Shown piece after piece: positions 4,805 to 61,463 of a stretch of DNA of 64,000 nucleotides; the stretch's first letter is position 1, and each line of letters starts with the position of its first letter. Under the pieces are notes generated by a model. It had not been told where the DNA came from. It saw only the letters and a list, made by a program, of their open reading frames with translations, and ran no database searches. The stretch comes from a virus. The stretch lies in IMG/VR virus record IMGVR_UViG_3300045988_174823; one strand, given 5' to 3'. A program made the translations under genes and the position numbers.

Positions 4805-5608
4805 TTACACTTCTACAGCGTCAAAGTCAATATCAAATTTCTTATATACAATGCGCAACTCGGGCACACCATTGATCGGCTTCTTCTTTTCATCAACACG
4901 AGCGTTAAGCGGCCAACGCTTCAAGATGATATCATGCGCACGTTGAACGCGCTCACGACGTTCGTACACATCCTGGAGACCGCCACCTTGTGTAGCTTCC
5001 TTGTTCATCTTACTCTGGAGCAAGAACCGTACGAATCGCGCATACACGATGCCGAGATACATACATTTTAACGAATAGTCGATATCACATTTCAACTCCA
5101 ACCGCTCATCAAAGTCCAACTCTAACGTGCGAAGACCCTTGAACACGATAAGGTGTGGAATACCGCCGTATTTGAAACGCGGACTAACGTCGATGCAATT
5201 CCAATCAAAAGCACTTTTGCCCATGGTGCCATATTCGAAGTCGGTTTTCATCACCTCTCGGTCGAATTCGTTGAAGAATTCAGCCAACTCTTCATGGGTT
5301 TTCAACGACAGTCCGCATTTGGCTTCACCGTCAATTGAGTAGAAGAAGTTGGCGATATCGTCATCCATCACCACAACGGGATACCCCTCGCGCAAGTAGG
5401 TATTCTTGCAGAAATTGACTACGTAGCTGTAGCCACGATTCGAGGCTGGAAGCACAATGAGGCGTTCGCGCTCATGCCCGGCTTCAACATATTTTTCAAC
5501 ATCCTCTTTTTCTACCACGATGTGGTAATCCACGCCGCCCTTTTTCAACAATCGAGTCGTGACGCATTTAGGGCGGTTTTTAGACACGACAAAGAATTGA
5601 CAGTTCAT
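4805..5608 (-). CDS. GT-A-like glycosyltransferase candidate (DxD type), paralog-like to 23500-24315
   Basis: FFVVSKNRP strand, then VVVMDDDIANFF (DxD) about 85 aa later, and a C-terminal GGGLQDVY...RWP motif shared with ORF 23500-24315. The ATG at 5608 is preferred over the TTG at 5638 (3 nt after the upstream stop). Confidence 0.45.
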   Translation of the reverse strand: MNCQFFVVSKNRPKCVTTRLLKKGGVDYHIVVEKEDVEKYVEAGHERERLIVLPASNRGYSYVVNFCKNTYLREGYPVVVMDDDIANFFYSIDGEAKCGLSLKTHEELAEFFNEFDREVMKTDFEYGTMGKSAFDWNCIDVSPRFKYGGIPHLIVFKGLRTLELDFDERLELKCDIDYSLKCMYLGIVYARFVRFLLQSKMNKEATQGGGLQDVYERRERVQRAHDIILKRWPLNARVDEKKKPINGVPELRIVYKKFDIDFDAVEV

Positions 5609-5610
5609 AC

Positions 5611-6291
5611 TCAAAATGGTAAGTCGCCCTCGTACCAAATTTCCTCAGGCGGGTTCTGTTCTATAAAACGTTGATAATTGTCCAGTGTACTTTCTAACGA
5701 TGGATAAAACCTCATGAACAACTCCCACTTAACGTCAAACATATCATCACACGATACGCGGCGTTTCATCAGTAGGCTTTCGCTATTATAGCACTGCACG
5801 CAGACCTGACGACGGCCTCGTAGTACGTACGAATAGGGAAAGTCGCGATAGTATTCCGCACCAGACGCTGTATTATACACCACATCATGGATAAACTGGT
5901 TGAACGGGTGTCCTGCGCCGAGAGGTGCCAGTAACGTATAACCGGGATTGCGGTGCATAAACTTCCGCAAATGATCGCGAAGCGCTTGTTCGGCGAAATT
6001 AAGGCCGTCATTCCCGAATTTGGCGCGTAAGTACGTATAGACGCTCTCATAATTACAGTCCTTGGAATGGGCCTGAAAATCGCTACAACGGACATTTTCT
6101 AACTCCAGGTCCAGACAATCCATGGCTATACCCAGAAAATTGTACAGAAGCCGCTGCTCTGAAACGCGCTTTGGGTCGCTATCTACAGTAAGCACCCGAA
6201 CGTCATATTCGGGTGCTACTAAAACGTGACAAGCACTCATCAGGAGATCACCCGCGTGTGGCTCGACACAGAGGTATTTTATTTTTCCCAT
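5611..6291 (-). CDS. LmbE/PIG-L-family deacetylase-like protein
   Basis: N-terminal VEPHAGDLLMSA (compare AHPDD, with His/Asp spacing conserved) and a later GAGHPFNQFIHD (compare HPDH). Overlaps the upstream gene by 13 nt. Confidence 0.4.
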   Translation of the reverse strand: MGKIKYLCVEPHAGDLLMSACHVLVAPEYDVRVLTVDSDPKRVSEQRLLYNFLGIAMDCLDLELENVRCSDFQAHSKDCNYESVYTYLRAKFGNDGLNFAEQALRDHLRKFMHRNPGYTLLAPLGAGHPFNQFIHDVVYNTASGAEYYRDFPYSYVLRGRRQVCVQCYNSESLLMKRRVSCDDMFDVKWELFMRFYPSLESTLDNYQRFIEQNPPEEIWYEGDLPF

Positions 6292-7238
6292 GGCCGTTTG
6301 TATATCTTCTCGACGCAGGGGCCGTCCTTCGATACGTCCTCAGCCATACGGCGAATTTCTGGCGTGATAGGCGGGAGCGTTTTCTTACCCATCTTATCAG
6401 GCAGGAAACCGACACGGACGCTGACATGTGTACACCCCTGACACGGACGGAACCGACGATCGTTGTTGTACAGCATCACGCGGGCAGCATGAAAGCGCGG
6501 ATGGTTCCAGAGGTCTTCGATAGGCATGTCGTGGATGTTGGCGATAGGGTACTCGCCGCGAAAGTCGTCGCAGCACAAGCACACCTGGCCGTTCCAACGC
6601 ACATCCAGTTCGCGGAACGGAAAAGTACATCGTTTGTTGTTGAACGAGTCGTCGAGCGGGAACGCTGCGCCACAGTGGTTAGCCAGACGACGCGTCATCT
6701 TGTTGGTATCGTCTTCGGCGATAGGCGGCAACAGACAGATACGGCGGCCCTGCTTGGGGTAGTAGTACGGAACGCCCGGTTCCAGCGTAACGACGTTGTA
6801 TTTCTCGATGTCGATTTTCTCGACGAAATTCCAGTCACCCTTAGCCGTATAGCAGTCCACCAGAATATCATTCATGCCGGCTTCAAAAAGACGGTCTAAA
6901 TATTCCGACGTATCCTTGGCGTGGTTCATACCGTACCCGTTGCTGTACATATGAAATACGGCTTTGGGCAGGTGTTTACGGAACGTAGCCACGATGTCGA
7001 TGAATGCGGGGTTGAGCGTCGGTTCGCCGTGCATAGCGAATACGAACTTACATTTCCACCCTACGCGGGCTACCTCTGAAGCGATACGCTCGGCGGTTTC
7101 AACGGTCATGAAATTCCACGGCTTAGTGCCTTTTTCGCGCATGCCGTGGAGACCGCAAAACGAACAACCCAGATTACACCCCTCCGTCGGTTCAATCTGC
7201 ATAGTGAACGGAGGGTCTTGTACGATTTTGTTTTTCAT
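6279..7238 (-). CDS. radical SAM enzyme with C-terminal Cys-rich (SPASM/twitch-like) domain
   Basis: EGCNLGCSFCG (CxxxCxxC) and HGEPTLNP. C-terminal CLCCDDFRG...RPCQGC. The ATG shares one nt with the stop of the MuF-like gene. Confidence 0.8.
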   Translation of the reverse strand: MKNKIVQDPPFTMQIEPTEGCNLGCSFCGLHGMREKGTKPWNFMTVETAERIASEVARVGWKCKFVFAMHGEPTLNPAFIDIVATFRKHLPKAVFHMYSNGYGMNHAKDTSEYLDRLFEAGMNDILVDCYTAKGDWNFVEKIDIEKYNVVTLEPGVPYYYPKQGRRICLLPPIAEDDTNKMTRRLANHCGAAFPLDDSFNNKRCTFPFRELDVRWNGQVCLCCDDFRGEYPIANIHDMPIEDLWNHPRFHAARVMLYNNDRRFRPCQGCTHVSVRVGFLPDKMGKKTLPPITPEIRRMAEDVSKDGPCVEKIYKRPWEK

Positions 7239-9268
7239 TATTTGGTAACTTTAATGTTAAGTTTCACGTTCTTTAACTTTGGGTTCTTAAACTGGCGTTT
7301 GATAGGCTTGATGAAAGCGCGGGTTGCAGGGTCCCAATCAAAGCCATCAGGAACGTGGTTGACTGTACACCGGCAATTGTGAACCACAATTCCATCGGCA
7401 ATGTAGCTTTCATCTTCGGCAACTGAAATATTGTACAATTTAGTGTACTTTTTAGATCTCGGAACTTGTTTAATGTATAAAACCTTCACACCACGCGAAA
7501 CTATTTGCCCCCGGTGATTTTTGAACAGCCGTTTCAGGCGGTTGTAAACCATATCGCCGTGGTTGTTTATCTCATCTTCAGTGAAGCGGAATGTCTCATA
7601 GCCGTAACACTCCAAAATGTCCTTATCGCGGTTGGAATCGTATTCCGGATCGTTGTGCCATTTTTCGCCGTCAGCCTCCAAAACAATCTTGAGATCGGGA
7701 ATCAGTAAATCGGGGAAATACCCCACAACATCGTTGCGGAACTTTCCGTTATTTTTCAAGAACACCCCTGTCTTAGCTTCAACTCCTAACGACTTACACA
7801 GATACTCCAACTTGCGCTCGATGAACGACCGTTTCTTACCATTGGTAGAATTAGTCTTCTTCAGCGCCTCAGCCATCCAAGGATACTCACCTTGATATTT
7901 ATCTTCGATAGCTTTTCTTGCTCTGGTGGTAAGTTTCTGACGATCGACAGCACTCATATTGGCATAACGAACAGCCATCTCTTCTTTGACTTTCTTACTC
8001 ATGTAAGAACGGAACTCTGTGTCTTGCCATTGCGAGACGCACTGTTCGCTCCGGTGACAAGCTATACACAGCCCCCTCTCCAAAAGAGTATCGCTGGCTG
8101 AAACGTATATTGGCATAAACGAACCGCATTTTTCACAACAAACACCTTCGATTGTTATCAAATCGCCTGTTTTCAATGAAGCAGCCTCTCGCCATTCACC
8201 GTTTGAAAGAATTGGATGATTTCCTGTTATACGACGCACCTTCCGTACCTTTTTACGCCCTAAAAGGTTTTTGACGGCATAATAGATGTCGTACAGGGGT
8301 TCATCCTTATGATCGTGAATAATCACTTCCGTAACAGGCCTAAACCTCCCTCGGTGAGTCAAAACCATATCCCCTTTCTTTAGAGAAGATATGTTTCTCC
8401 ATCCGTTGATGGTGTACACCTTTGTAGCCGGATTATTGAAACAATAGGGGTGCGTTGGGTCAATCGTAGGGAGCCATTCTGCCACCTTACGACCGATGTT
8501 GTTACCGTTAGCGATAAGGTCTGCCAAACGGAACAGTTTCGGTTTCGAGGTAGGGTCTTCGGGGTCTTCTAAGTACAACTCCCGGCACTTAGCGCACGCG
8601 CCTGGATAGACGTCGAAATACACTTTGGCGTCAGGACCGTGTTGCTTGAAAATACTTTCGGCACGGCCCACGTTGTAGGCTTCGTGTAGAAGGTAGTACG
8701 CAATACGCAGCCAATCGCGTCCCCAGTCTTGGGTAAGGTTTCCGAGTTCGCTGGCTATATACCGGGCTCCCTTACGGAGTTGAACAGCTTGAATGGCCTT
8801 GTCTTTTATTTGTTGACGTATTTCTGATTGTTGACGGAAATTCGATTTGAGTACAGCGTTGCGTGTTCCGGTGACGATACGATTACCAAGCGACGTGATG
8901 TCGGTATAGGCACGATTCTTGAGGTAGTTGAGCGCGTTTTCTTCCTGTTCGGTAAGCGGAACAAAGTTTCCCGATTTCAAGAACTGGAGAAACTGCTTGT
9001 AATTCATCTTCTTGGCGCGAGTGTCGCCAATTGCTTCGGCCAGTATTCCAAACAAAAAGGCGTGTTCGATGATGCCCTTTGAGTTCTTGTACTTATCGAC
9101 GTTGACCCCTGAAGCTACCAAGATATCAATTTCAGACTGCGTGAGGTAGTCCAATCCGACGTGCTTGGCAATAAAGAGATATTGCCAACGCCGGAGAATA
9201 CCGACCATGTCGTCTATTTGACGGTTGTTGAAAATCATAACTTTTCGACGTCTTTTCGGGGAATCCAT
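7238..9268 (-). CDS. MuF/SPP1 gp7-like head morphogenesis protein interrupted by an intein
   Basis: Removing residues 276-631 joins THPY to CRCTV. This restores the HPxCRC motif typical of Mu F/SPP1 gp7 family proteins. Confidence 0.7.
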   Translation of the reverse strand: MDSPKRRRKVMIFNNRQIDDMVGILRRWQYLFIAKHVGLDYLTQSEIDILVASGVNVDKYKNSKGIIEHAFLFGILAEAIGDTRAKKMNYKQFLQFLKSGNFVPLTEQEENALNYLKNRAYTDITSLGNRIVTGTRNAVLKSNFRQQSEIRQQIKDKAIQAVQLRKGARYIASELGNLTQDWGRDWLRIAYYLLHEAYNVGRAESIFKQHGPDAKVYFDVYPGACAKCRELYLEDPEDPTSKPKLFRLADLIANGNNIGRKVAEWLPTIDPTHPYCFNNPATKVYTINGWRNISSLKKGDMVLTHRGRFRPVTEVIIHDHKDEPLYDIYYAVKNLLGRKKVRKVRRITGNHPILSNGEWREAASLKTGDLITIEGVCCEKCGSFMPIYVSASDTLLERGLCIACHRSEQCVSQWQDTEFRSYMSKKVKEEMAVRYANMSAVDRQKLTTRARKAIEDKYQGEYPWMAEALKKTNSTNGKKRSFIERKLEYLCKSLGVEAKTGVFLKNNGKFRNDVVGYFPDLLIPDLKIVLEADGEKWHNDPEYDSNRDKDILECYGYETFRFTEDEINNHGDMVYNRLKRLFKNHRGQIVSRGVKVLYIKQVPRSKKYTKLYNISVAEDESYIADGIVVHNCRCTVNHVPDGFDWDPATRAFIKPIKRQFKNPKLKNVKLNIKVTK
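7376..8443 (-). mobile_element. intein (356 aa) with Zn-finger-like Cys cluster and DUF559/Vsr-like PD-(D/E)XK nuclease domain
   Basis: Starts with Cys (tgt, 8443-8441) and ends VVHN (aat, 7378-7376), followed by +1 Cys. Internal CCEKCG...CIACH cluster and PDLLIPDLKIVLEADGEKWHNDPEYDSNRDKDILECYGYETFRF. Confidence 0.7.
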
Positions 9269-15551: not shown

Positions 15552-15836
15552 TTAGCGTGAATATACGTAGGTCTTACGGTCAGCCCACACGAAATTATAA
15601 CTCATATCCCCCTGAGGATACTCGGTAATGGTAATACCATCAGCAGTGGTTTCCCGCTCGATGCGCCATCCTGCCTGCTGTTGACCTGTGCCAATAGGCG
15701 CATAACCGCGGTAGATAACGTCGCCCCCTGAGGCGTCAACAATCGGTTTCGGCATAGCATCGCTCAGCAATTGGACAATGGGCGCGGTGTTTTTCTCGTT
15801 ACTCGTCATGGTGTATTGCTTTTTGTAAGTATTCAT
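15552..15836 (-). CDS. hypothetical protein
   Basis: 94-aa ORF immediately after the portal gene. Start uncertain (alternative ATG at 15809). Confidence 0.45.
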   Translation of the reverse strand: MNTYKKQYTMTSNEKNTAPIVQLLSDAMPKPIVDASGGDVIYRGYAPIGTGQQQAGWRIERETTADGITITEYPQGDMSYNFVWADRKTYVYSR

Positions 15837-17574
15837 CGAATGCAGCTACGAGAGGATTGGACTCGCGTGCCTTCATAGTTTCTTCTTGATCACCCTCAGC
15901 GTAAAGGTCAAACGGATTTCCTGGCTGAGCGGTATCGTCTTCTTCCTCTTCGTCGCCAGCCACGGGTTGATCAGCAGGGCCTCCAGCTTCCATCCCCATA
16001 CCAGCAGCCTCTTCAAACGGATTGCCTCCGCCCATACCGCCCATTGCGGCCTGTTGCTGTTGTTGCTGCTTGGCGCTGATGGCTTGCTGTATAACAGAGT
16101 TTTCGATAGTATCGCCACCCTTTTCTTCGCCGATAGCCGGGAGGTCCCACTTCTCGCGAATTTCGTCCACGGTCTGGAAAGCCTGGAGACGTTTGATGTC
16201 CATATCCAGTTCCTCAGAGATGGTCATTCCGTTGAGGCCCATGAATACGAACTCGAAGTCGGGGTTGATTTGCTCGACGATGAACTTGTTAACCTTACGT
16301 TGGATGAATTTCAGCATCGGGTAAAGACCCTTGTCCTTCGACTGCTCCATGCGCTGCTTTTGGCCGTCGCCGAACGTTAGGCCACTGCCATTGGAACGCG
16401 AAATATCCCAGCCAATTTCCGTAGGGTCAATGCAGAATACTGCACAGGCGATTTTGATCAGATATTCCATCCACGAGTTATACTCCATATCGCGGTTGTT
16501 CTTCTGAAGGTCAACCCAGTCGATATCTCCCTCAACGACAGGCGTCTTCCATGACTGCATAACACCCGATATCATGGCCTGCCATTGCTGCTTGAACTGC
16601 TGAAGCGAGGCTTCGTTCACGTTACCTTTGATACGCAGAAGACCTTTCGGAGCCGAACCCTGTGAGAAGAAGCGGCGGTTGTACTCGTCGCCCCAAAGCA
16701 TCGATGTCACAACGTTGATTAACTCTTCCAACTCAGAGTTTCCGTAACCGTTAGCGTAAATCGACGTGGTCGGATTGCGAATTCCAAAGCACAACTCCCA
16801 TGGGTAGAACTGCGCTACCTTGGCCGTCTGGTACACCTGGACGTAGGCCGGATAATAGCCATCAACCTTAGGTCCCCAGTTCTGGCGATCGTCCATCATC
16901 GCTCCTTCAAAGTAGGGGTTGTTGTACTCGCCATCGAAATACGATTCCGCCAGGCGGAATGTAGCGGCATCAACGGCCTGGAAGCGGACCAGTTTGCCGC
17001 GGCGGTTGCGAATGCACTCAAACGTCATCTGATCGAACGTTAGCGAGTCGTCCACAATCTTACGTATAAATTCGTCAAACTCGTCGCCGTCCCACATAGC
17101 GGTATCGCCACAGTTGAGGATGAAGTCGGTGATGGAAGACGCAATTTTGCGGTCCTGCGTGTCCATCTTCTGCTCTTGGCCGAACTTAGGCTTGCGTCGA
17201 ATAACAAATCCCGTTGAATAGCGGTCGGCCTGCGGTTCGGCGAAGTCAGCTATCTGGTTTTTACGGGTCTTGATAATCGAATTAATAATGGGGGTGCGAC
17301 TCATCCGGCGTAACGTTTCGTACGAAAGCGAAAACGGCTTATCCTTATATCCTAAAAACGAGTTGAACTCCAAAGGATCGATCAGATATGCCTTCGGGGC
17401 AACGTTAGCAGGCTTGTGTTGCTGGTTTAATATTTCAGCAGCTTTGAGTATATCAGACGGGCTCTCGCTGCGCATCGCACGCTCTAACAACAGCGATTTG
17501 CGTATCGTCAAAGCCTGCATGGCGCGTTCCACCGATTCCAATCTTTCTTTCACACCGGACATAATTGTTTTCAC
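15799..17574 (-). CDS. portal protein
   Basis: 591-aa ORF. GYGNSELEELINVVTSMLWGDEYNRRFFSQGSAPKGLLRIKG and its surroundings are portal-like. Poly-Q plus an acidic C-terminal tail. The track start is GTG; an ATG alternative lies at 17562. Confidence 0.75.
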   Translation of the reverse strand: MKTIMSGVKERLESVERAMQALTIRKSLLLERAMRSESPSDILKAAEILNQQHKPANVAPKAYLIDPLEFNSFLGYKDKPFSLSYETLRRMSRTPIINSIIKTRKNQIADFAEPQADRYSTGFVIRRKPKFGQEQKMDTQDRKIASSITDFILNCGDTAMWDGDEFDEFIRKIVDDSLTFDQMTFECIRNRRGKLVRFQAVDAATFRLAESYFDGEYNNPYFEGAMMDDRQNWGPKVDGYYPAYVQVYQTAKVAQFYPWELCFGIRNPTTSIYANGYGNSELEELINVVTSMLWGDEYNRRFFSQGSAPKGLLRIKGNVNEASLQQFKQQWQAMISGVMQSWKTPVVEGDIDWVDLQKNNRDMEYNSWMEYLIKIACAVFCIDPTEIGWDISRSNGSGLTFGDGQKQRMEQSKDKGLYPMLKFIQRKVNKFIVEQINPDFEFVFMGLNGMTISEELDMDIKRLQAFQTVDEIREKWDLPAIGEEKGGDTIENSVIQQAISAKQQQQQQAAMGGMGGGNPFEEAAGMGMEAGGPADQPVAGDEEEEDDTAQPGNPFDLYAEGDQEETMKARESNPLVAAFDEYLQKAIHHDE

Positions 17575-17599: not shown

Positions 17600-17923
17600 T
17601 CAACACAACAGTTTCAAAATGTCGTTCCGCGCTGTTTTACGAATTATCAATGCCTGATGAAGAAGGTCGCCCCATACCGCTATCTGGTAACCATTCCACG
17701 TGTAATAATCCGTTTGATCGTCGTACGAGCCATTCCATTCACCGTCGTGGCGTATGTCAGCGACGAGGCGTTTAAAACGCGCTGTTTCTTCGGTGGTAAG
17801 GGGTGATATGAAAGTGCCGACGACTACTAATCGTGCGGCACTTGTGGAAAGATCATCGGCCAAAATCTGAAAGTCGATGCCCATAAAATCGCCCGTTTCC
17901 AACGGCGTGTGAAAGGTTATCAT
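17600..17923 (-). CDS. hypothetical protein
   Basis: 107-aa ORF, 4-nt overlap with the upstream gene. Confidence 0.5.
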   Translation of the reverse strand: MITFHTPLETGDFMGIDFQILADDLSTSAARLVVVGTFISPLTTEETARFKRLVADIRHDGEWNGSYDDQTDYYTWNGYQIAVWGDLLHQALIIRKTARNDILKLLC

Positions 17924-18930
17924 TTGCCTATCAATTTACAAGCTCTTGGTTCAAATGTAGAGCGTTGTTTACCTTCACCAATCTTCATTTTCCAGTACTT
18001 TTGATACTCACACAGCCACATTTCCACCTGGTGAAGTGATATCTCGCCCGACGGCGTGACGTAATACCCCGATTCAAGTTTGTGCCAGTGTAGGTACGGA
18101 AAATCGCCAAACGAAGATAACGCTGCCTGTGCCTCATCACGCAGGCGATATATACCGTCAATTTGACGCTTCAACGATGGGAACACCAACCGCAGCCCTA
18201 TGGACGCACCAGGCCCCACATTGGTATAGTCATCCTGGGTAAAGTGCATGAAACGGCGATAGGTATAGCGCGGTATGTAGGTGAAGTCTTGGTAGAATTC
18301 GTGAGCGATAAATGTCGCCGACGAAGGTAACTCCTGAAGGAACTTGATAATCTGCCCAGGATCGGTAGCCGTCAACACCGTCCGCATCAGTTTACCTAAC
18401 TTACGATGAAGCGTAGGCACAACCAAATGCGTGTAGCAGTAGTCGCGCGGTTTTCCAGGTGTGGCCATCGAATTGATGAGGTAGGCCGTGGTGTAGGGGT
18501 TGTTGCCTGTGGCACGGTACGACGTTATCATTTCCGCAAAGCGGTCCTCGTCGTATTGGTTATAATCCGGAATGCCCGCTCCCCAACCGTACTTTTCACG
18601 AGCATATTCAAACGTTTCAGGGTTGTTAAAATACCGGAACACCATCATCTTCCAAACCAGATTCGTCAGCGTTAATTCGTCATCCAGCAAGATATTACGT
18701 ATCTGCCACTGCGAATTACGATCCAGTTCACGATACACATTGGTGAATTTGTAATCGCGTAATATAGGATCATCAGTCCACGGACGCGGTTTCTGATCCA
18801 GGAACCGTCGCTTCCATATCATTTGGCGCTCAAACATCGTGCGGAAGAACTCGTGATAGTGTTCCTCGCTGACGTCAAGTGCGGCGTCAGGTAATTTATC
18901 AGCCCAAGGGTAATGATCAAATTTCGCCAT
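17920..18930 (-). CDS. aGPT-Pplase / 5-hmdU-DNA-kinase helical-domain-like protein (DNA base hypermodification candidate)
   Basis: 336-aa all-alpha-looking ORF. WKRRFLDQKPRPWTDDPILRDYKFTNVYRELDRNSQW matches my recollection of the conserved N-terminal motif of these families. Not verifiable here. Confidence 0.4.
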   Translation of the reverse strand: MAKFDHYPWADKLPDAALDVSEEHYHEFFRTMFERQMIWKRRFLDQKPRPWTDDPILRDYKFTNVYRELDRNSQWQIRNILLDDELTLTNLVWKMMVFRYFNNPETFEYAREKYGWGAGIPDYNQYDEDRFAEMITSYRATGNNPYTTAYLINSMATPGKPRDYCYTHLVVPTLHRKLGKLMRTVLTATDPGQIIKFLQELPSSATFIAHEFYQDFTYIPRYTYRRFMHFTQDDYTNVGPGASIGLRLVFPSLKRQIDGIYRLRDEAQAALSSFGDFPYLHWHKLESGYYVTPSGEISLHQVEMWLCEYQKYWKMKIGEGKQRSTFEPRACKLIGK

Positions 18931-24334: not shown

Positions 24335-27052
24335 CTAACCTAACATATCGAATTTAAATCCGGTAGTCATACGCGACGCCGCCAAGTCGGCCAGCCAAAA
24401 CGACGACGAAATATCATCGTGACTACCGACACTCTCCAGCCCTTTTTCGGTAAAGGCAACGGAACCGAGGTCTTGGAAGATGAGGTCCTTGACCTGCTGA
24501 GAATAAACGTTACCTATCGGGATGTGGATTTTGCCGCGCTCGAACAACGTCGAAAGGTGCGGCCATCCGGTCTTCAGGTCGTACTTATCAATTCCCGTAG
24601 TGTGACCAATAACGGGCATACCCTCGGTGTCGGCTGTCTCGACGAATATCTGTTGGAATGTGTTATTCTCCATCACGATAAGGTCAGGCCGGAAGCGGGA
24701 GTTGATACGGCGCAGAACGTTCATCTGCTCGAAAAACTTGGCACCTTTTTCACGGTAGAGGTGCAACAGCCAGCGCTCGTCGGTCAATTCGTCAATACCC
24801 CATACGCTAAATACGGCGTAGTCGGCGCCGACGTTGGCTGAAATAGCGAAGTCGCACCCGACAACCACTTTAGAGAACTTAATGGGGAATTCTTCGCGCG
24901 AATCAACCAACGTGTAATTTTCCATCCGCAGTAGCGAACGCGTGAGGATTTCCATCGGGAAGATTGACGACTCGTTGGTAATCGGGCGACAAAGGTTCTC
25001 ACGCGAGAAGATGATTGAACCCTGGGTCTCCTTTTTATCCATCAGGTCCTTAAACGACCAACGCTGGGGCCAAAGGATTCGTCCGTCGGGGAAGATGGCT
25101 GGATACTCGATAACGAACCAACCGTTCTTGGTCTTCAGGTCGCCGTAAAGGTCTTCGGCGTGGAACGGCGTACCGACGACGATAATCTGGCCACCAGGTA
25201 CGAGCATATTCATGATTACGGAGTGGAAATAGTCGGTGGACTTATTTCGTTGGAGACTGGAGTAAATGACGTTGTCCTTCAAGCCGTCATCTACGATAAT
25301 CCAATACGGGTGAGCACCACGCACCGACGATCCAAAACCTTTTCCCGTCAAACGTGCTCCGTTACGGCACACGATATTGGTAGCCGACCAGTTGTTGGCT
25401 GTCGATTGGGGAAACAGCCGTTCCTTCAATATCTCGTTTTCCTCAATAGTGCCTTTCAGAATCTCCAAAAGGTCCACACTCTGTTGTAACGAGAACGAGA
25501 ACAAGAATCCGCGATTTGATGAAGCTGCCGCAGGTCGTTTCGAGTAGCGGGTGGTTGACGGCTTCTTGTAACGGTATAGCTGCCACGCGGCGTAGGCGTT
25601 GGAGAAATAGAACGAGTTGTGCGTAACCGTACCGTCACCCAGCACGAAGCGGTGGTCGCCGTCGGTGGTGATAGATATGTAGTCACCTTCACCCGCGGGC
25701 GTGATCTTCAACGACGATACCACCGTAGGGTGTACGCCGTCGATAGTGCCCCAGTCCTTGTGTGACGTCTTGGCGGCCCAGTCGGTTTGGACCTTTTTAC
25801 GAGCGATCTTTACTGGGATGCGGTCCAGTTCACCAGAAATAGTCACGCACCACGACGAATAGTCGCGGCCTAACGCTTTACAATACCGCGTTCCACCACC
25901 CATTCGGGTACAGAAGCCAAGGCTGTCGGCCAAGTTCTTCACGTCACACACCAACTGGTAGTTCGTATTACCGAAGTGATAGCCGCCCTGCCAATAGTTA
26001 CCGTCGGAATCGATCAACCCAGCCAACACCTGAAGACGAACTTCTTCGCTGTTGACGAGGTACTGCTCCGGAATGTGCTTATTGTAGAGCAGGTTGTAAC
26101 CCTTGAGCATCCTTTCCAGCGGGTTACGCTTACCGCGGCCACGAACGTCAATTCCAAGTGTCACTACCATACCATTTTGGCCATAGTGAAGCCCCAAGCG
26201 CTCGGCGTAAGAGTGTAAGTACTCACACACTTCAGGGTCGGCGGTGGTGATCTTCTGGTTGTTGGAGTTGCCGTCGCCTAACCAGTACCCAAGAAAATAT
26301 GGTTCCAACCCCACGGGCCGCGTGGGGTACTGCACTGCCACCTTGAAACCGCGGTAACGTTCCTTCACCCAGTTCGGGGTCTTGCTTAAAAGCGTCGGAA
26401 TATCAATATCCACTATCCGCTTCGACGCTGTAGCGATGGAACCGTTGCGGTCCTTCTCGATCAGCGTACAAATGTGGCGTGAGTTGACGGTGTGGCTATC
26501 ACCGCGCGACTGGTCGATACGGTACATCATCGAATCGTGGCCACGGCGCGTAGCAACCACGCGGCGGGGCTTAGAGTCGATGCCCATCAACAAGTCGCCA
26601 ACCACAACGTCTTCGACCTTTTTGATAGTTCCGTCGTACATTCGGACGGGGGTTCCGACGGCTTCGCACTTTCCGTGGTCACGCGCTGCGTTGATACACA
26701 ATTTCTTGTGGTTATGGACTAATTCACCCCATTCCAGGTGGTGCCACGACAGCTGGAAGTCAGGGATAACAGAGGTGATGAAATACGTCAAGTTGGCGCA
26801 TCGTAGGGTATCTTCTACGACGGCCGAAACGTTTTCTTCGTAGCGGGGTTTGAAGTCAATCGACGCGTCACCCGTGTACATAATACGATATGTGTCCTCC
26901 AACAGAGCGTCGAATATCGTATCAACGTCGTGTATATCGCCACTCATCATCTCATTCAACCCACGCTCGTCCATACCCTCGATTATTTCATCAACGAGGT
27001 CTAAACAAGCCAAACGGTGCGTAACCGAGGGTGCTGTAATCTGAGGTATCAT
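24335..27052 (-). CDS. terL: terminase large subunit interrupted by an intein in the Walker A motif
   Basis: Removing residues 129-479 gives NAARDHGK-SFYFS (P-loop). The remaining ~550 aa have a terminase-like layout. Confidence 0.8.
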   Translation of the reverse strand: MIPQITAPSVTHRLACLDLVDEIIEGMDERGLNEMMSGDIHDVDTIFDALLEDTYRIMYTGDASIDFKPRYEENVSAVVEDTLRCANLTYFITSVIPDFQLSWHHLEWGELVHNHKKLCINAARDHGKCEAVGTPVRMYDGTIKKVEDVVVGDLLMGIDSKPRRVVATRRGHDSMMYRIDQSRGDSHTVNSRHICTLIEKDRNGSIATASKRIVDIDIPTLLSKTPNWVKERYRGFKVAVQYPTRPVGLEPYFLGYWLGDGNSNNQKITTADPEVCEYLHSYAERLGLHYGQNGMVVTLGIDVRGRGKRNPLERMLKGYNLLYNKHIPEQYLVNSEEVRLQVLAGLIDSDGNYWQGGYHFGNTNYQLVCDVKNLADSLGFCTRMGGGTRYCKALGRDYSSWCVTISGELDRIPVKIARKKVQTDWAAKTSHKDWGTIDGVHPTVVSSLKITPAGEGDYISITTDGDHRFVLGDGTVTHNSFYFSNAYAAWQLYRYKKPSTTRYSKRPAAASSNRGFLFSFSLQQSVDLLEILKGTIEENEILKERLFPQSTANNWSATNIVCRNGARLTGKGFGSSVRGAHPYWIIVDDGLKDNVIYSSLQRNKSTDYFHSVIMNMLVPGGQIIVVGTPFHAEDLYGDLKTKNGWFVIEYPAIFPDGRILWPQRWSFKDLMDKKETQGSIIFSRENLCRPITNESSIFPMEILTRSLLRMENYTLVDSREEFPIKFSKVVVGCDFAISANVGADYAVFSVWGIDELTDERWLLHLYREKGAKFFEQMNVLRRINSRFRPDLIVMENNTFQQIFVETADTEGMPVIGHTTGIDKYDLKTGWPHLSTLFERGKIHIPIGNVYSQQVKDLIFQDLGSVAFTEKGLESVGSHDDISSSFWLADLAASRMTTGFKFDMLG
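25616..26668 (-). mobile_element. intein (351 aa) with LAGLIDADG homing endonuclease
   Basis: Starts with Cys (tgc, 26668-26666) and ends VTHN (aac, 25618-25616), followed by +1 Ser. Contains LGYWLGDGNS and LAGLIDSDGNY. Confidence 0.8.
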
Positions 27053-56976: not shown

Positions 56977-59022
56977 CTATTGTAATATCTCTAACCTTGT
57001 AGATTGTGAAGACTGTACGGTCTTCTTTCCAGCGAAATAATTCACACGCCCTGAAACAGCCACAATACGGTTCAACAGCGTAGCTTCGTTTTCCGGCTGA
57101 TGAAGCCAAAAGTCAGGCCACAACGTAATCTGGATGATGAGGTCGTTGACCTCCACTTGCAGTACACCGTAAGAATCGCCACCTTTGGTTTGACGTTCGA
57201 ATACGTTATTCGCACGACCAACGATACAAACCTCGTCGCCCTCGTGTTTACGCTCAAACTCGGCGGCGGTAACGTACAGCCGAACCATCCGTTTTCCGAG
57301 TCCGTATTCGTTCATCATACGTTCGTAGTCCACCTCGCCGTACCCGGTTAATTCACGCTGTTTGAAGACCCACCAGGCGTTAGTGTGAGCATCAGGCGAA
57401 GTGAATTCGTCGGAAAGCGGTTCACCGCGGCGTTCGAGATATTGCTTGACGATATCCAGACGCTGACGAGGATTGCGTATGTCTTCTACCAGATCGAACG
57501 CTCCAGCCATAATAAGACGCAACACCACAGTACGGTTTATGCCTTTAGGGGCAGAAGTTATGAAGTCCTCAAACGAGAACACTTCGCCGTGTTCATCTTT
57601 CATGGCTTTCAATAGCGTCAACGCCCGCTCGCCTACTCCCTTGACCTTACCCAGCGAAAAGAAGATACGGTTCGTCTTGGGGTCGCACGTAAAGGTTTCA
57701 CCCGAGAAATTGATATCCGGCGGACGGACCTCAATTTCGGCCCCGGTTTTCTTCATCTCCACCAAGCGATACGGGATATCGGACTCCTTCGAGGCGTACT
57801 GAAGCGACGTCGTCCAGAACTCCAGCGGGTAGTTAACCTTAAACCACTGTGACCAGTACGACATCATGGTATAGGCCACGGCGTGCGACTTGTTGAAGCC
57901 GTACCCTGAAAAGGCCAGCAGTTTGCTCCAAACCTCATCAGCCCGCGCTTCAGGTTTCTCAGTCAACCCGCGTTCGCGCAACAAGGTCGCGTATCCGGCA
58001 CGGAACTTATCGTGAAACGACTCGATAAGGTCCATATTTTTCTTCTTGATGGCGGTACGCAGGATATCGGATTCCACTGGACTCAGACCGCCTACAACGA
58101 CGGCTTTCATTATCTGCTCCTGGTAGGTATAGAGCGAATAGGTGTCGCGCGTTATTTCCTCCATACCGGGGTCGAATTTAGGCTTCCGGGCGCCATTCTT
58201 AATTTCAACGAACGTTTCGTGCGCCTTAACATCCATAGGACCCGGACGGAACAACGCCGTCATAGCGATAAGGTCGTCCAGGCTATGCGGTTTGGCCTCG
58301 CGGCAGTAGTTCATCAACCCCATAGCGCCAAACTGGAACACATCCTCGCACCAACCGCGCTGGAAATACCGGAATACCTCCTCGTCGTTGAACGGGATGG
58401 TGTTGACGTCGATTTGCTCCTTGCGGTTCTTGGCGATAAGTTTCAGAATAGATGAAAATTTATCCAGCTGGTTGAGACCTAAAATATCCTCTTTCAAGAA
58501 CCCTGACTTGTCGATATACTTACCCTCCCACTCGGAGACCAGCACACCACCCATGCGTTTCATAGGCATCCACCCGTAAAGGTCGATGGGGTTTCCGTCT
58601 TCGTCTTTCCGGGGTACGATGATAACGGCCGACGGATGAACTGAACCCGTCTTACACTGCGTAAGGGCGTATTTCGTCATGTGCACCAACTCCGGATGGT
58701 CCTGGACGAAACGGAACAATTCCCGCGACGTAGCGGCGTAGTTGAACAGGTCGCCCCACGTGTATTCTATCTGGTCGTCAATGTCCTTGGTGAGTTTATT
58801 CATCACCGCAAACGGCACGCCCATAACCTTACCAAAGTCCTTCAAACAGGTTTTCAGTTTCATGCGTGTGTACGTACCCACGGAGCAAACGTGGTCAACG
58901 CCGTAACGACGAGCCATGTACTCCTTTACCGTATCGCGGAACGCCACCGGGAAGTCGCAATCCACGTCCGGCATGCTGTCCTGACGAGCAACTTCAATCT
59001 TTTTTATTTTTAGAATTCTCAT
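56977..59022 (-). CDS. dnaE: DNA polymerase III alpha (DnaE-type), C-terminal piece starting at the catalytic PDxDxDF motif
   Basis: MRILKIKKIEVARQD-SMPDVDCDF, FRPGPMD and GYGFNKSHAVAYTMMSYWSQWFKVNYPLEFW. Its ATG (59022-59020) overlaps the endonuclease TGA as ATGA. Confidence 0.85.
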   Translation of the reverse strand: MRILKIKKIEVARQDSMPDVDCDFPVAFRDTVKEYMARRYGVDHVCSVGTYTRMKLKTCLKDFGKVMGVPFAVMNKLTKDIDDQIEYTWGDLFNYAATSRELFRFVQDHPELVHMTKYALTQCKTGSVHPSAVIIVPRKDEDGNPIDLYGWMPMKRMGGVLVSEWEGKYIDKSGFLKEDILGLNQLDKFSSILKLIAKNRKEQIDVNTIPFNDEEVFRYFQRGWCEDVFQFGAMGLMNYCREAKPHSLDDLIAMTALFRPGPMDVKAHETFVEIKNGARKPKFDPGMEEITRDTYSLYTYQEQIMKAVVVGGLSPVESDILRTAIKKKNMDLIESFHDKFRAGYATLLRERGLTEKPEARADEVWSKLLAFSGYGFNKSHAVAYTMMSYWSQWFKVNYPLEFWTTSLQYASKESDIPYRLVEMKKTGAEIEVRPPDINFSGETFTCDPKTNRIFFSLGKVKGVGERALTLLKAMKDEHGEVFSFEDFITSAPKGINRTVVLRLIMAGAFDLVEDIRNPRQRLDIVKQYLERRGEPLSDEFTSPDAHTNAWWVFKQRELTGYGEVDYERMMNEYGLGKRMVRLYVTAAEFERKHEGDEVCIVGRANNVFERQTKGGDSYGVLQVEVNDLIIQITLWPDFWLHQPENEATLLNRIVAVSGRVNYFAGKKTVQSSQSTRLEILQ

Positions 59023-59772
59023 TTCTTTCTCGGTTTCATTCCATGCCAAAATCCATCGGGGAGAGAGGCGTCCTTGCAAATAGTAGCGTTTATTTCGCCG
59101 TTAGTTATCCTAACTTTGCCTTGCATAGGGTTCGTGTATCCACGTTCATACCTATCGCGTAATTTCTTTCCAAAATCTTTTCGCCGCTCCTCGGGCCAGC
59201 GATTATGCCAGTTAGGGTTATTTTCACCCTTGTATCGCCCTTTCATTTTAGCCGACAAATTTGCCTTTTGTTCAGCCGTCCATCGGTTGCCGTAGTTTGG
59301 ATTCTTTTCGCCTATGTATCGCCCTTTTAAGGTCTTCGAAATTTTTTTTCTTATAATCAGTATTATCTAAAGCAATTTGACGTTTTTGATGAATTTGCTT
59401 CATTAATTCTGGATGATTCTTGAATGTCTTTTTAAGCGACCGTGAAACTTTCAAAGCAACCTCTGGAATCAACATGGGTGAGCCGCTTCCAAACTTATTA
59501 GCCGTACCCGATAAGATATTGTAGCCAATCCTCTTATTGGTTGAATTGAGTTTCTTGATGTATAGCATTCCCCAGGCGTCGAGTTGTAACTGGGTATCGC
59601 ATACGCGGAGCGTTTCACGCTTGAAGTTCTCAGGTCCGTAATGTTTAACCGCGTTCGTCAAAGATACACCACTACCCAAATACCCGTCAAACTCGTCAGA
59701 TTCGCAAACATGTTGGCCGATATAAATCTTGCCGTTAATTAGGTTCGTAGTTTTGTAAATTATACCGTACAT
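59019..59772 (-). mobile_element. GIY-YIG homing endonuclease gene inserted in dnaE, split into two frames at an A8 run
   Basis: ORF 59272-59772 has GIIY...KIYIG. The NUMOD3-like repeats (GEKNPNYG, GENNPNWH) continue in the frame of ORF 59019-59258, open from 59366. The frames meet at sense-strand A8 (plus T8 at 59342-59349), and A7 would give one ORF. Confidence 0.75.
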
Positions 59773-61463
59773 AAAGTTCGCAATTTATCAATATCTATGT
59801 CGAGGTCTATATTTGATAAATCGCAGTCTATGTCTATCGCTTCCCCGCTTCGAAGAGGAATCTTAGTATTTTCAGGCAACTTGAATTTCCCGTATCCTTC
59901 TATTTCTATCTCCCAGAATTTTGGGATGTTAACACGCGTCTCGTTCAAGAAACGCTCAAACATCAAGTTGTATTTCAGCGGATCAACATCCGTAATATAC
60001 AGGCAATACGCAATCAGCGAACCACACACTGAACCACGGCCCGACCCGGTCATGATACCTTGTTCGCGGCACCAGTTCATGATGTCCCAAAGTATCATAA
60101 AGTAGTCGCACAGCCCGTTCGGCACGATAATGGCACATTCCTTTTCCAACTCGGCCATATAGTGGTCGAGATTATCGACTTTACCTACTAACCGCTCTTG
60201 TACGCCAGCTTCAAGTTTTTCAAAAAAGGCGTCTTCAACCGTAGTTTTTACAAACTCGTATTTCGGTAGATGGCGTATTCCGACGGGTATCTGAAAGTCT
60301 ATACTCTCCGTCAACGTAGTGGAATTAGCCATGCCATCAATTATCTTTTCGTAAAGGGGCGCGGCTACGTCCATCCACTCTTCATACGCTAAAATCGTCT
60401 CTTTTGAGTTTTTGAAATACTGGGTTGCGCTTTCGGCATTGACCACGCCTGCCACCTTGTTCAGGAGCGACTTCAGCGGAGCCTCTTCAGGGTCGAGATA
60501 GTACGAGTCGTTGATAACGAGCGGTGGTGTATCGCGGTAAAGTTTAATTTTACGGCAACGACATACGTAGGTATCAATACTTTCCAAGTGATCGCGGAAT
60601 AAGGTTTCGGACGCGTACTCCACCGTATCGATCTGGTAATACACACGGTCGAATGCGGCGTGATAGGCCGTCAGTAACCGCTTGCAACGCTCGACATCTC
60701 CCTTGAAATAGTTTAATTCACTGTCAGGCGGTATTACACATACCAGGCCGCGTCCTAACTTGTAGAGTTCTTCCGCGGGTATAAACCCCTGATAATCGAC
60801 GTTTATAGCCTTATTAACCAATAACAGGTTACGCCATCCGTGGGTACTCATGGCGTATAGCTTCAACGAAAAAGTTTCCTGAACATCAGCTGCCGGATCA
60901 TAGTTACAAACCACGGTAACGGTTTCACCGATGATAGGTTTCAGTCCCTTGCCTAAGCAAGCGGTCTGAAAGGCGAGCGTGCCAGCCAGCGTATTACGGT
61001 CACAAATACCCAGAGCCGTCATACGGTTGAATTTGGCCTTAGCAGCCCACTCTTCGCAGTTGGACGAACCGTTCAAGAACTCGTATTCGCTATGAACACC
61101 CAGGTGAACGAACGGAACCAGTTCCTCAGCCGTGCTTGTACCAAGATATTTGAAGTCGCGGAATTCGGGACGGAAAACCACAGTTTTATCCAGCCGCAGG
61201 TGGTCCTTTTTGATATTCGAGTAGTAGAACTTGCCGCCGAATTCGAAGAGAATGTATTTCACCACGCCATCGTACAGTGCGTCGAATTCAGCAGCCGTTA
61301 CTGCGAACGAGAATCGTTCGTCGATTATCTTTCCGCTATCGTCGGGGTGTAGGTACAAGAAGTCCCCTACACCCTCAATGGCGATTATGTTCAATTCGTC
61401 GTCGCGCTTTTCTTCGATAGCCAGATAGTTATCTTCCGCCCACCGACGTAGCGAGTCAGTCAT
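59760..61463 (-). CDS. dnaE: DNA polymerase III alpha (DnaE-type), N-terminal piece (PHP domain to just before the catalytic Asp motif)
   Basis: FVHLGVHSEYEFLNGS (PHP) and GRGSVCGSLIAYCLYITDVDPLKYNLMFERFLNETRV. A 56-aa non-canonical tail then runs into the endonuclease start. Confidence 0.85.
   Translation of the reverse strand: MTDSLRRWAEDNYLAIEEKRDDELNIIAIEGVGDFLYLHPDDSGKIIDERFSFAVTAAEFDALYDGVVKYILFEFGGKFYYSNIKKDHLRLDKTVVFRPEFRDFKYLGTSTAEELVPFVHLGVHSEYEFLNGSSNCEEWAAKAKFNRMTALGICDRNTLAGTLAFQTACLGKGLKPIIGETVTVVCNYDPAADVQETFSLKLYAMSTHGWRNLLLVNKAINVDYQGFIPAEELYKLGRGLVCVIPPDSELNYFKGDVERCKRLLTAYHAAFDRVYYQIDTVEYASETLFRDHLESIDTYVCRCRKIKLYRDTPPLVINDSYYLDPEEAPLKSLLNKVAGVVNAESATQYFKNSKETILAYEEWMDVAAPLYEKIIDGMANSTTLTESIDFQIPVGIRHLPKYEFVKTTVEDAFFEKLEAGVQERLVGKVDNLDHYMAELEKECAIIVPNGLCDYFMILWDIMNWCREQGIMTGSGRGSVCGSLIAYCLYITDVDPLKYNLMFERFLNETRVNIPKFWEIEIEGYGKFKLPENTKIPLRSGEAIDIDCDLSNIDLDIDIDKLRTLCTV

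What the first reader, a model, noticed from the sequence alone, without database searches (positions are those of the whole stretch)
7376..8443. Intein in the MuF-like protein carrying a DUF559/Vsr-like PD-(D/E)XK nuclease instead of LAGLIDADG or HNH
The boundaries are clean: Cys1 at 8443, HN at 7376, +1 Cys. Excision restores the HPxCRC motif. Inside, there are no LAGLIDADG or HNH motifs. Instead there is a Cys4-like cluster (CCEKCG...CIACH). There is also PDLLIPDLKIVLEADGEKWHNDPEYDSNRDKDILECYGYETFRFTEDEI, which matches the DUF559 / very-short-patch-repair-like restriction-endonuclease fold. Inteins with this nuclease class are uncommon at best, and the MuF motif is an unusual insertion site.
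Basis: partly seen in the sequence, partly recalled or inferred. Interest (0 to 1): 0.65.

Follow-up and report, generated by a model that had tools for sequence, protein, structure and literature searches.

The report
Phage intein with built-in Vsr-like nuclease
A phage head-assembly gene is interrupted by a self-splicing protein element (an intein) whose DNA-cutting domain is an unusual repair-enzyme-like (Vsr/DUF559) type fused in frame, and comparison with related phages shows the element has recently been jumping between genomes.

Summary
Window 8443..7376 (- strand) encodes a 356-aa class-1 intein (Cys1, TxxH, His-Asn, +1 Cys). It splits HPY|CRC in a divergent MuF-like head protein. Twenty-two near-identical intein-less alleles in related ~100-kb phage contigs lack exactly these 1068 nt.

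The insert holds no LAGLIDADG or HNH domain. It holds a CxxC...CxxC zinc ribbon, a helical region and a DUF559 nuclease core. That core passes Pfam's cut-off, folds like I-Bth0305I, PvuRts1I and 3HRL, and keeps all Vsr/EDxHD active-site residues.

The element looks active:
- Inteins 99.8% identical sit in exteins only 90% identical.
- Each intein-bearing lineage's closest extein relative outside its own lineage lacks the intein.
- The flanks are mosaic.
- dN/dS of the nuclease core is 0.022.
- Relatives show stepwise nuclease deletion.

In metagenomes this intein type is common: 88 of about 158 proteins examined, mostly 50%-identity cluster representatives. The MuF HPxCRC motif is its main home.

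No isolated phage genome carries it. The papers I could search describe Vsr-like nucleases only with split inteins, introns or antisense. I rate it a new variant of a known kind.

The parts
7238..9268 (-). Precursor ORF, 676 aa: MuF-like head-morphogenesis protein with the intein
   Evidence: The spliced 320-aa product aligns end to end with intein-less phage homologues. hhalign against MuF domains gives 98% probability. The portal gene lies upstream at 15799..17574.
8444..9268 (-). N-extein, residues 1-275, ending ...DPTHPY
7376..8443 (-). Intein, 356 aa, class 1: Cys1, Thr73-x-x-His76, Asp344, His355-Asn356
   Evidence: The AlphaFold model has mean pLDDT 76, and Foldseek hits intein Hint domains at probability 1.0.
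8147..8443 (-). Hint N-lobe, intein residues 1-99, with blocks A and B
8057..8137 (-). CxxC...CxxC zinc ribbon (Cys103, 106, 126, 129), the first part of the endonuclease module
   Evidence: It is kept even in the degenerate mini-inteins P0005 and P0006; P0007 keeps only part of it.
7859..8056 (-). Helical region (residues about 130-195, three long helices), presumed DNA-binding part of the module
   Evidence: It is conserved together with the nuclease in many other inteins and in free-standing homologues. Its function is inferred.
7508..7831 (-). DUF559/Vsr-like nuclease core (residues about 205-312) with Glu209, Asp245, Glu256, Asp258, Trp262, His263, Asp269
   Evidence: Pfam; PDB profile search; Foldseek; hhalign to Vsr at 96.3% and to I-Bth0305I at 97.3% probability; residue map and conservation; dN/dS 0.022.
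7376..7489 (-). Hint C-lobe, residues 319-356, blocks F and G: ...LYNISVAEDESYIADGIVVHN
7238..7375 (-). C-extein starting with the +1 Cys (CRCTVNHV...) and the stop codon

Best explanation
Window 8443..7376 (- strand) is a mobile class-1 intein in the most conserved motif (HPY|CRC) of a divergent MuF-like head-morphogenesis protein of an uncultivated ~100-kb phage. The Hint splicing domain is interrupted by an in-frame homing-endonuclease module with three parts: a zinc ribbon, a helical region, and a Vsr-like (DUF559) nuclease core carrying the EDxHD-type active site. The proposed mechanism has two steps. First, after translation the intein excises itself (Cys1 thioester, attack by the +1 Cys, Asn356 cyclisation) and restores HPYCRC, so the head protein works. 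Second, in a cell co-infected with a related intein-less phage, the released intein cuts that phage's MuF gene at or near the HPY|CRC codons, and repair from the intein-bearing copy transfers the intein together with flanking sequence. Shown here: the boundaries, the domain make-up, homology of each part, conservation of all splicing and nuclease residues, the existence of precise intein-less alleles, near-identical inteins in diverged host genes, mosaic flanks, purifying selection, and a series of decaying relatives. Inferred, not shown: actual splicing, actual cleavage, the cut site, and whether the enzyme nicks or makes a double-strand break.
For: Anatomy.

Splicing domain: Pfam Hint families; Foldseek hits on intein structures at probability 1.0; Cys1, TxxH, Asp/Ser of block F, His-Asn and +1 Cys invariant or nearly so across 47 distant relatives.

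Nuclease:
- DUF559 scores above Pfam's cut-off.
- A profile search of PDB sequences finds 3HRL at E 8.5e-5 and PvuRts1I at E 2.8e-4.
- Foldseek on the nuclease-only model puts PvuRts1I, I-Bth0305I (target-normalised TM-score 0.72) and 3HRL (0.74) on top.
- A 138-sequence profile aligns to E. coli Vsr (96.3% probability, E 1.6e-9) and to the I-Bth0305I catalytic domain (97.3%, E 1.8e-11), in the register that superposes Glu209/Asp245/Asp258/His263/Asp269 on Vsr Glu25/Asp51/His64/His69/Asp97.
- These residues are conserved in 116-138 of 138 sequences.

Mobility:
- There are 22 intein-less and 6 intein-bearing alleles in related IMG/VR contigs.
- Inteins of the window and L021 differ at 2 of 1068 nt, while their exteins are 90.1% identical. 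Variant B inteins are 99.7-100% identical in exteins 88-98.5% identical.
- For each of the five intein-bearing lineages (L019, L020 and L023 are each other's nearest), the closest extein relative outside the lineage lacks the intein.
- The window's extein is 100% identical to intein-less L003 in the 5' far region (-825..-430). It then differs from -427 to +65 around the insertion, where it is closest to intein-bearing alleles.
- The 20-24 nt immediately 3' of the intein are identical within each intein variant.

Selection: dN/dS between variants A and B is 0.062 overall and 0.022 in the nuclease core, from 44 synonymous and 8 non-synonymous differences.

Life cycle: relatives with the nuclease partly or wholly deleted sit at the same site (P0005, P0006, P0007, P0014).
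Against: There is no experimental test of splicing or cleavage. The Intein_splicing Pfam score is 1 bit below the curated cut-off. The structure models are of moderate confidence (pLDDT 76 and 68.5), and the Foldseek E-values for the nuclease are modest (8e-3 to 9e-2). The mosaic pattern could also arise from ordinary phage recombination that happens to carry the intein along. The co-conversion signal upstream is suggestive rather than sharp for the window versus L021. Vsr itself is a nickase and I-Bth0305I works as a homodimer, so how a single in-frame domain would make a double-strand break is unknown.
Confidence: 0.85

Rival explanations
1. The intein is real but its spread owes nothing to its own nuclease. 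General recombination between co-infecting mosaic phages moves the MuF segment around. The DUF559 domain serves another purpose, for example cutting competitors' or host DNA, or nicking only.
For: The window's extein is a recombinant mosaic. Phage genomes of this group are clearly mosaic. The fold's closest relatives include a restriction enzyme nuclease domain (PvuRts1I) and a nickase (Vsr).
Against: The recombination tracts are centred on the insertion site in independent lineages. The same nuclease module is found in at least 88 inteins and is lost only together with signs of intein decay. About 75 of those 88 sit at one motif, which is the signature of site-specific homing.
Confidence: 0.08
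2. The nuclease domain is an inactive relic and the intein is now inherited only vertically, at a late stage of the homing cycle.
For: Close relatives do show decay (P0005-P0007, P0014, and the possibly truncated P0011).
Against: All catalytic residues are intact. dN/dS is 0.022 in the nuclease core. Inteins are 99.8% identical in exteins 90% identical, and intein-less alleles are the nearest relatives outside each intein-bearing lineage.
Confidence: 0.05
3. The insert is not a splicing element but a permanent inserted domain, or a bacterial-intein-like domain that only cleaves. The mature MuF protein would then carry a nuclease.
For: MuF domains are often fused to effector enzymes in polyvalent proteins (PMC5512222). 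Some relatives are 2-3 thousand residues long.
Against: The insert breaks the most conserved motif of the domain. It has every class-1 splicing residue including the +1 Cys. It is absent without trace from alleles 95-98% identical.
Confidence: 0.02

Closest known systems
I-Bth0305I and the 'EDxHD' Vsr-like homing endonucleases (Dassa 2009, PMC2677866; Taylor 2011, PMC3239194; PDB 3R3P)
   Same: Same Vsr-like nuclease fold (Foldseek probability 1.0, target-normalised TM-score 0.67-0.72). Same active-site positions (hhalign 97.3% probability). Both are found in phages and associated with self-splicing elements.
   Different: Those enzymes are separate ORFs: in a group I intron, between the halves of split inteins, or free-standing. 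They carry N-terminal NUMOD/helix-turn-helix regions. Here the nuclease is translated in frame inside a contiguous intein, preceded by a zinc ribbon and helices. By plain HMMER the window's domain matches DUF559, not 3R3P or Vsr.
Inteins of actinobacteriophage minor capsid (MuF-like) proteins, e.g. Gordonia phage Lennon gp16 (bioRxiv 10.1101/2025.01.02.630785)
   Same: Same kind of host protein and same insertion point, immediately before CRC (...HEVIN|C...CHN|CRCT). The Hint N-lobes are 31-36% identical.
   Different: The preprint describes one group of seven minor-capsid inteins as carrying an antisense LAGLIDADG nuclease, and says minor-capsid inteins carry only non-canonical nucleases; I did not check which nuclease Lennon itself carries. 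Across actinophage inteins, Vsr-like nucleases were seen only antisense. No DUF559 region is found in those phages.
Canonical LAGLIDADG or HNH inteins, e.g. PI-SceI (PDB 1VDE)
   Same: Same overall plan: a Hint domain split by an in-frame homing endonuclease, inserted at a conserved site, with a homing cycle that ends in mini-inteins.
   Different: The nuclease fold and catalytic chemistry differ. There are no LAGLIDADG or HNH matches.
DUF559 proteins (PF04480; PDB 3HRL) and the nuclease domain of PvuRts1I
   Same: These are the best sequence matches of the nuclease core and top structural matches.
   Different: They are stand-alone cellular proteins of unknown role, or a modification-dependent restriction enzyme. 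Neither is part of a splicing element.

Membership tests
Intein (class 1) | Hint fold | tested here: met
   Pfam Hint families. Foldseek against many intein structures gives probability 1.0.
Intein (class 1) | Cys/Ser1, block B TxxH, penultimate His, terminal Asn, +1 Cys/Ser/Thr | tested here: met
   Cys1, Thr73/His76, His355-Asn356 and +1 Cys are present. They are invariant or nearly so in 47 relatives.
Intein (class 1) | In-frame insertion at a conserved site, with homologues that lack it precisely | tested here: met
   22 intein-less alleles at 84-95% nt identity and 16 distant phage homologues are contiguous across the junction.
Intein (class 1) | Protein splicing demonstrated | not testable with these tools
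   Needs expression followed by SDS-PAGE and mass spectrometry.
DUF559 (Pfam PF04480) | Score above Pfam's gathering cut-off | tested here: met
   35.9 bits against a cut-off of 20.6. 46 of 47 related inteins also match.
Vsr-like 'EDxHD' homing endonucleases | Vsr-type restriction-endonuclease-like fold | tested here: met
   Foldseek on 3R3P gives target-normalised TM-score 0.67-0.72 at probability 0.99-1.0. hhalign gives 97.3% to I-Bth0305I and 96.3% to Vsr. 13 of 47 relatives match Pfam Vsr.
Vsr-like 'EDxHD' homing endonucleases | Composite active site: Glu, Asp, x, His, Asp (Vsr Glu25, Asp51, His64 position, His69, Asp97) | tested here: met
   Glu209, Asp245, Asp258, His263 and Asp269, plus Glu256 at the Vsr Phe62 position. 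Conservation is 116-138 of 138.
Vsr-like 'EDxHD' homing endonucleases | N-terminal NUMOD/helix-turn-helix DNA-binding region; separate ORF | tested here: not met
   The module here starts with a zinc ribbon and three helices, has no NUMOD match, and is in frame within the intein.
Vsr-like 'EDxHD' homing endonucleases | Site-specific cleavage of the element-free allele | not testable with these tools
   Population genetics is consistent with it, but no enzymology was possible.
MuF / SPP1 gp7 head-morphogenesis domain (Pfam PF04233) | Match to the family profile, including the C-terminal HPxCRC motif | tested here: inconclusive
   The spliced extein gives no Pfam hit at E<=10. However, hhalign of its family against MuF domains gives 98.0% probability, E 1.5e-13, over 132 columns including CxxC and HPxCRC. 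24 of 47 proteins with the same intein match PF04233.
LAGLIDADG or HNH intein endonucleases | LAGLIDADG or HNH domain match | tested here: not met
   No such Pfam family at E<=1. There is only a weak hit (E 0.0046) to a PHROG annotated as HNH.

The most novel reading that the evidence does not exclude
In-frame Vsr-like (DUF559) endonuclease inteins form a large, so far undescribed intein class that specialises on the HPxCRC motif of MuF head proteins of uncultivated phages. They would be the contiguous-intein stage that Dassa et al. (2009) predicted in their gene-fracturing model but did not observe for this nuclease family. In this phage the enzyme would also have to recognise DNA carrying hypermodified thymidines.
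Probability: 0.5. Interest if true: 0.7.

Novelty: new variant of a known kind. Interest (0 to 1): 0.6.

Why it matters
Reviews and surveys list LAGLIDADG and HNH as the in-frame intein endonucleases. Vsr-like enzymes are reported only beside split inteins, in introns, free-standing, or antisense.

This finding adds a further in-frame nuclease fold to contiguous inteins. It is not a one-off: it belongs to a family with dozens of diverged lineages.

The phage population around this window holds every stage at once: empty sites, two active intein variants, mosaic flanks and decaying copies. That makes it a natural system for studying homing in uncultivated phages.

The module is compact (about 220 aa) and its target is a short, highly conserved coding motif, which makes specificity studies straightforward. 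The family also supplies many new natural Cys1/Cys+1 inteins for protein engineering.

Tried and rejected
- Single-sequence phmmer against PDB sequences gave only marginal hits (E 0.2-0.3). A 3-sequence profile helped.
- hhalign of that 3-sequence profile against Vsr and 3R3P gave meaningless probabilities (0.7-3.4%). Only the 138-sequence profile was decisive.
- Pfam on the spliced extein found nothing, and PHROGs gave only a weak 'head maturation protease' hit. A small profile-profile test gave 38%; the deeper one gave 98%.
- The idea of an antisense or out-of-frame nuclease, as in actinophage inteins, was rejected. The + strand inside the intein has only ORFs of 67-92 aa, and the DUF559 match is in the intein's own frame.
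- tblastn of this intein and of a more typical family member against 50,697 phage records found only Hint N-lobe matches.
- The scan of species-representative genomes used a generic intein block-F pattern and mostly returned unrelated inteins. Only 4 of 80 loci had the in-frame nuclease and 2 had it antisense.
- Literature searches for intein with DUF559, MuF, head morphogenesis or polyvalent proteins found no description of this architecture. The library lacks most subscription journals, so absence is not proof.
- The window is not the same genome as the IMG/VR contig with the near-identical intein: their exteins are only 90% identical.
Full report
**1. What is in the sequence**

The - strand ORF 7238..9268 encodes 676 aa. 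Reading the DNA places the Cys1 codon at 8443-8441, His-Asn at 7381-7376 and the +1 Cys at 7375-7373.

The insert is 1068 nt, or 356 aa, and occupies ORF residues 276-631. Removing it joins ...DPTHPY to CRCTVNHV....

Pfam on the insert finds these families:
- DUF559 (PF04480) at 35.9 bits against a cut-off of 20.6, E 7e-9, on residues 238-303.
- Intein_splicing at 34.8 bits, 1 bit under its cut-off.
- PT-HINT, Hint_2 and Vint.

No LAGLIDADG or HNH family appears at E<=1. The + strand inside the insert has only ORFs of 67-92 aa, so the nuclease is not encoded antisense.

**2. It is an intein**

The spliced 320-aa product aligns across the junction with 16 intein-less homologues in deposited phage genomes. 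These include Chryseobacterium phage MA9V-3 (36% identity), Bacillus SP-10-like phages and Bacteroides DAC phages. With the unspliced ORF as query, all those alignments stop at residue 276.

In IMG/VR, 22 contigs of closely related ~100-kb phages carry the same gene at 84-95% nt identity without the 1068 nt and with HP[YF]CRC intact. Six carry an intein at exactly this point.

An AlphaFold model of the intein has mean pLDDT 76. It matches many solved intein Hint domains at probability 1.0.

In an alignment of 47 distant relatives, Cys1, Thr and His of block B, Asp and Ser of block F, and His-Asn are invariant. The +1 Cys is nearly so. In the window these are Cys1, Thr73, His76, Asp344, His355 and Asn356. 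This is a standard class-1 set. Splicing itself is inferred.

**3. The host protein**

Pfam does not recognise the spliced protein. A small profile-profile test was weak, at 38%.

A 16-sequence profile of its family was then compared with MuF domains taken from proteins that carry related inteins. This gave 98.0% probability, E 1.5e-13, over 132 columns. The aligned region includes the R-I-A-x-x-E helix, the CxxC pair and HPxCRC.

Two spliced relatives, P0009 and Gordonia phage Lennon gp16, match PF04233 up to profile position 111 of 112, which is the CRC. The gene lies downstream of the portal gene at 15799..17574. 'MuF-like' is therefore justified, as a divergent member.

**4. The nuclease module**

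Between the Hint lobes lie three parts:
- A CxxC...CxxC zinc ribbon (Cys103, 106, 126, 129).
- Three long helices (about residues 130-195).
- The DUF559 core (about residues 205-312).

A 3-sequence profile of the module finds the DUF559 structure 3HRL (E 8.5e-5) and the nuclease domain of PvuRts1I (E 2.8e-4) among PDB sequences.

Foldseek with a nuclease-only model (pLDDT 68.5) ranks these highest:
- PvuRts1I.
- The I-Bth0305I catalytic domain, target-normalised TM-score 0.72.
- 3HRL, target-normalised TM-score 0.74.

In the whole-intein search, 3R3P was the first hit that was not a Hint-type domain.

A 138-sequence profile with the window's sequence first aligns to E. coli Vsr at 96.3% probability (E 1.6e-9). 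It aligns to the I-Bth0305I catalytic domain at 97.3% (E 1.8e-11). The 3R3P fragment was read off.

The register puts window residues on Vsr and I-Bth0305I residues as follows:

| Window | Vsr | I-Bth0305I |
|---|---|---|
| Glu209 | Glu25 | Glu170 |
| Asp245 | Asp51 | Asp196 |
| Glu256 | Phe62 position (the invariant Glu noted by Dassa et al.) | not stated |
| Asp258 | His64 | Asn208 |
| His263 | His69 | His213 |
| Asp269 | Asp97 | Asp222 |

These positions are conserved in 116-138 of 138 sequences. The domain is thus a DUF559-type member of the Vsr-like superfamily with a complete EDxHD-type active site.

**5. Evidence that it moves**

Two intein variants occur in the related phages: variant A in the window and L021, and variant B in L019, L020, L022 and L023. 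A and B are 82.5% identical in nt and about 87% in aa.

Within each variant the inteins are far more alike than their host genes:
- Within A, the inteins differ at 2 of 1068 nt, while the exteins are 90.1% identical.
- Within B, the inteins are 99.7-100% identical, while the exteins are 88-98.5% identical.

Leaving out the 100 nt next to the site, the nearest extein relative outside each intein-bearing lineage lacks the intein. L019, L020 and L023 are each other's nearest relatives and count as one lineage.

| Intein-bearing allele | Nearest intein-less allele | Identity |
|---|---|---|
| Window | L003 | 96.8% |
| L021 | L005 | 90.7% |
| L022 | L014 | 98.1% |
| L019/L020/L023 | L004 | 97.5-98.1% |
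| L028 | L026 | 93.9% |

The window's extein is 100% identical to L003 in the 5' far region (-825..-430). It differs from -427 to +65 around the insertion, where it is closest to intein-bearing alleles. The 20-24 nt just 3' of the intein are identical within each variant and differ from most empty sites.

This is the pattern expected from gene conversion started at the insertion site.

Between variants A and B, dS of the intein (1.12) exceeds that of the exteins (0.41). dN/dS is 0.062 overall and 0.022 in the nuclease core.

Other relatives at the same site have lost the nuclease core (P0005) or nearly the whole module (P0006, P0007, P0014). That is the decay arm of the homing cycle.

**6. How common it is**

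A full HMMER search of 1.84 billion representative proteins with the module gave 496 hits at E<=0.001.

Among about 158 proteins examined, 88 have a Hint N-lobe, the module, and His-Asn followed by Cys. Median intein length is 371 aa.

Their insertion sites are as follows:
- 45 sit at Hxx|CRC.
- 10 sit at Hxx|CR[GSTH].
- 10 sit two codons further on, at HxxCR|C.
- 23 are classed as other. About 10 of these are obvious variants of the MuF motif, and about 13 lie in other proteins.

Of 47 scanned with Pfam, 46 match DUF559, 45 Intein_splicing, 39 MTES_1575, 13 Vsr and 24 Phage_Mu_F.

Free-standing genes with the same zinc ribbon + helices + nuclease exist, for example P0057.

In contrast, none of 50,697 deposited phage genomes carries the module in an intein. 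Only 4 of the 80 best loci from species-representative genomes do, all from metagenome-assembled genomes. Two more have it antisense.

**7. Comparison with what is known**

Dassa et al. (PMC2677866) described Vsr-like endonucleases as separate ORFs between split-intein halves, in recA group I introns, and free-standing. Their model proposed, but did not show, an in-frame stage.

Taylor et al. (PMC3239194) characterised I-Bth0305I and named the EDxHD family.

A 2025 preprint on actinophage inteins (10.1101/2025.01.02.630785) makes three relevant points:
- It lists in-frame LAGLIDADG and HNH.
- It reports Vsr-like nucleases only with split inteins and, as new, antisense.
- It reports minor capsid proteins as a newly found intein host.

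Gordonia phage Lennon's intein sits at the same point...HEVIN|C...CHN|CRCT.

I found no paper describing an in-frame DUF559/Vsr-like intein or its link to MuF. The searchable library is incomplete, and automated annotation already tags such proteins. JGI calls fragments of them 'very-short-patch-repair endonuclease'.

**8. Verdict**

This is a real, intact, apparently active intein. The kind is known: an intein with a homing endonuclease, and a nuclease superfamily already known to drive homing.

The variant appears to be new in two respects. The nuclease is fused in frame within a contiguous intein. The family is large and tied to one motif of a structural protein.

Interest is 0.6.

Noticed in passing
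window 24335..27052 (-): A 905-aa ORF holds a second, canonical intein. Pfam finds Hom_end_hint (E 8e-12, aa 130-188) and Hom_end/LAGLIDADG_3 (aa 327-383). The host protein was not identified.
   Followed up: no
window 56977..61463 (-): DNA polymerase III alpha is split into two ORFs: 59760..61463 (PHP domain plus the start of the NTPase domain) and 56977..59079 (the rest). A 166-aa ORF lies between them at 59272..59772 and starts MYGIIYKTTNLINGKIYIGQH, which looks like a GIY-YIG homing endonuclease. This resembles the 'fractured gene' arrangement of Dassa et al. Both halves carry extra residues at the break, and whether these form a split intein was not tested.
   Followed up: partly
window 17920..18930, 61465..62682, 4805..5638, 6279..7238 (all -): These ORFs match 5-hmdU DNA kinase (PF18723, E 4.5e-52), a thymidylate-synthase-like protein, a TET-associated glycosyltransferase (PF20691) and a radical SAM/SPASM protein right next to the MuF gene. 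Together they suggest thymidine-hypermodified DNA, which the homing endonuclease would have to cope with.
   Followed up: no
P0050 and P0033 (metagenomic proteins): By eye, these two 345-aa inteins look closely related. One sits at HPQ|CRC and the other at HPKCR|C, two codons apart in the same motif. This suggests the intein can shift between the two Cys of CRC.
   Followed up: partly
P0108: A 279-aa protein starts with Met at the zinc ribbon, carries the nuclease module, and ends with only a Hint C-lobe (...NGIVVHN|T...). It may be a nuclease fused to the C-half of a split intein.
   Followed up: no
L060 about 1840-2022 and L086 about 1837-1980 (genome-contig loci): In these two metagenome-assembled genomes, the Vsr-like nuclease matches the strand opposite to the intein. 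This is the antisense arrangement reported for actinophages.
   Followed up: no
P0008: An intein in a trypsin-like peptidase (PF13365) carries a different insert with a PD-(D/E)XK-like signature (...VTPDFIALKDNKVIAVEIEHG...). It may be another unconventional intein nuclease.
   Followed up: no
P0011: This 177-aa ORF is 86% identical to the window's nuclease module (variant B type). It starts inside the module and stops just before the Hint C-lobe. It may be a decaying copy or an assembly error.
   Followed up: no
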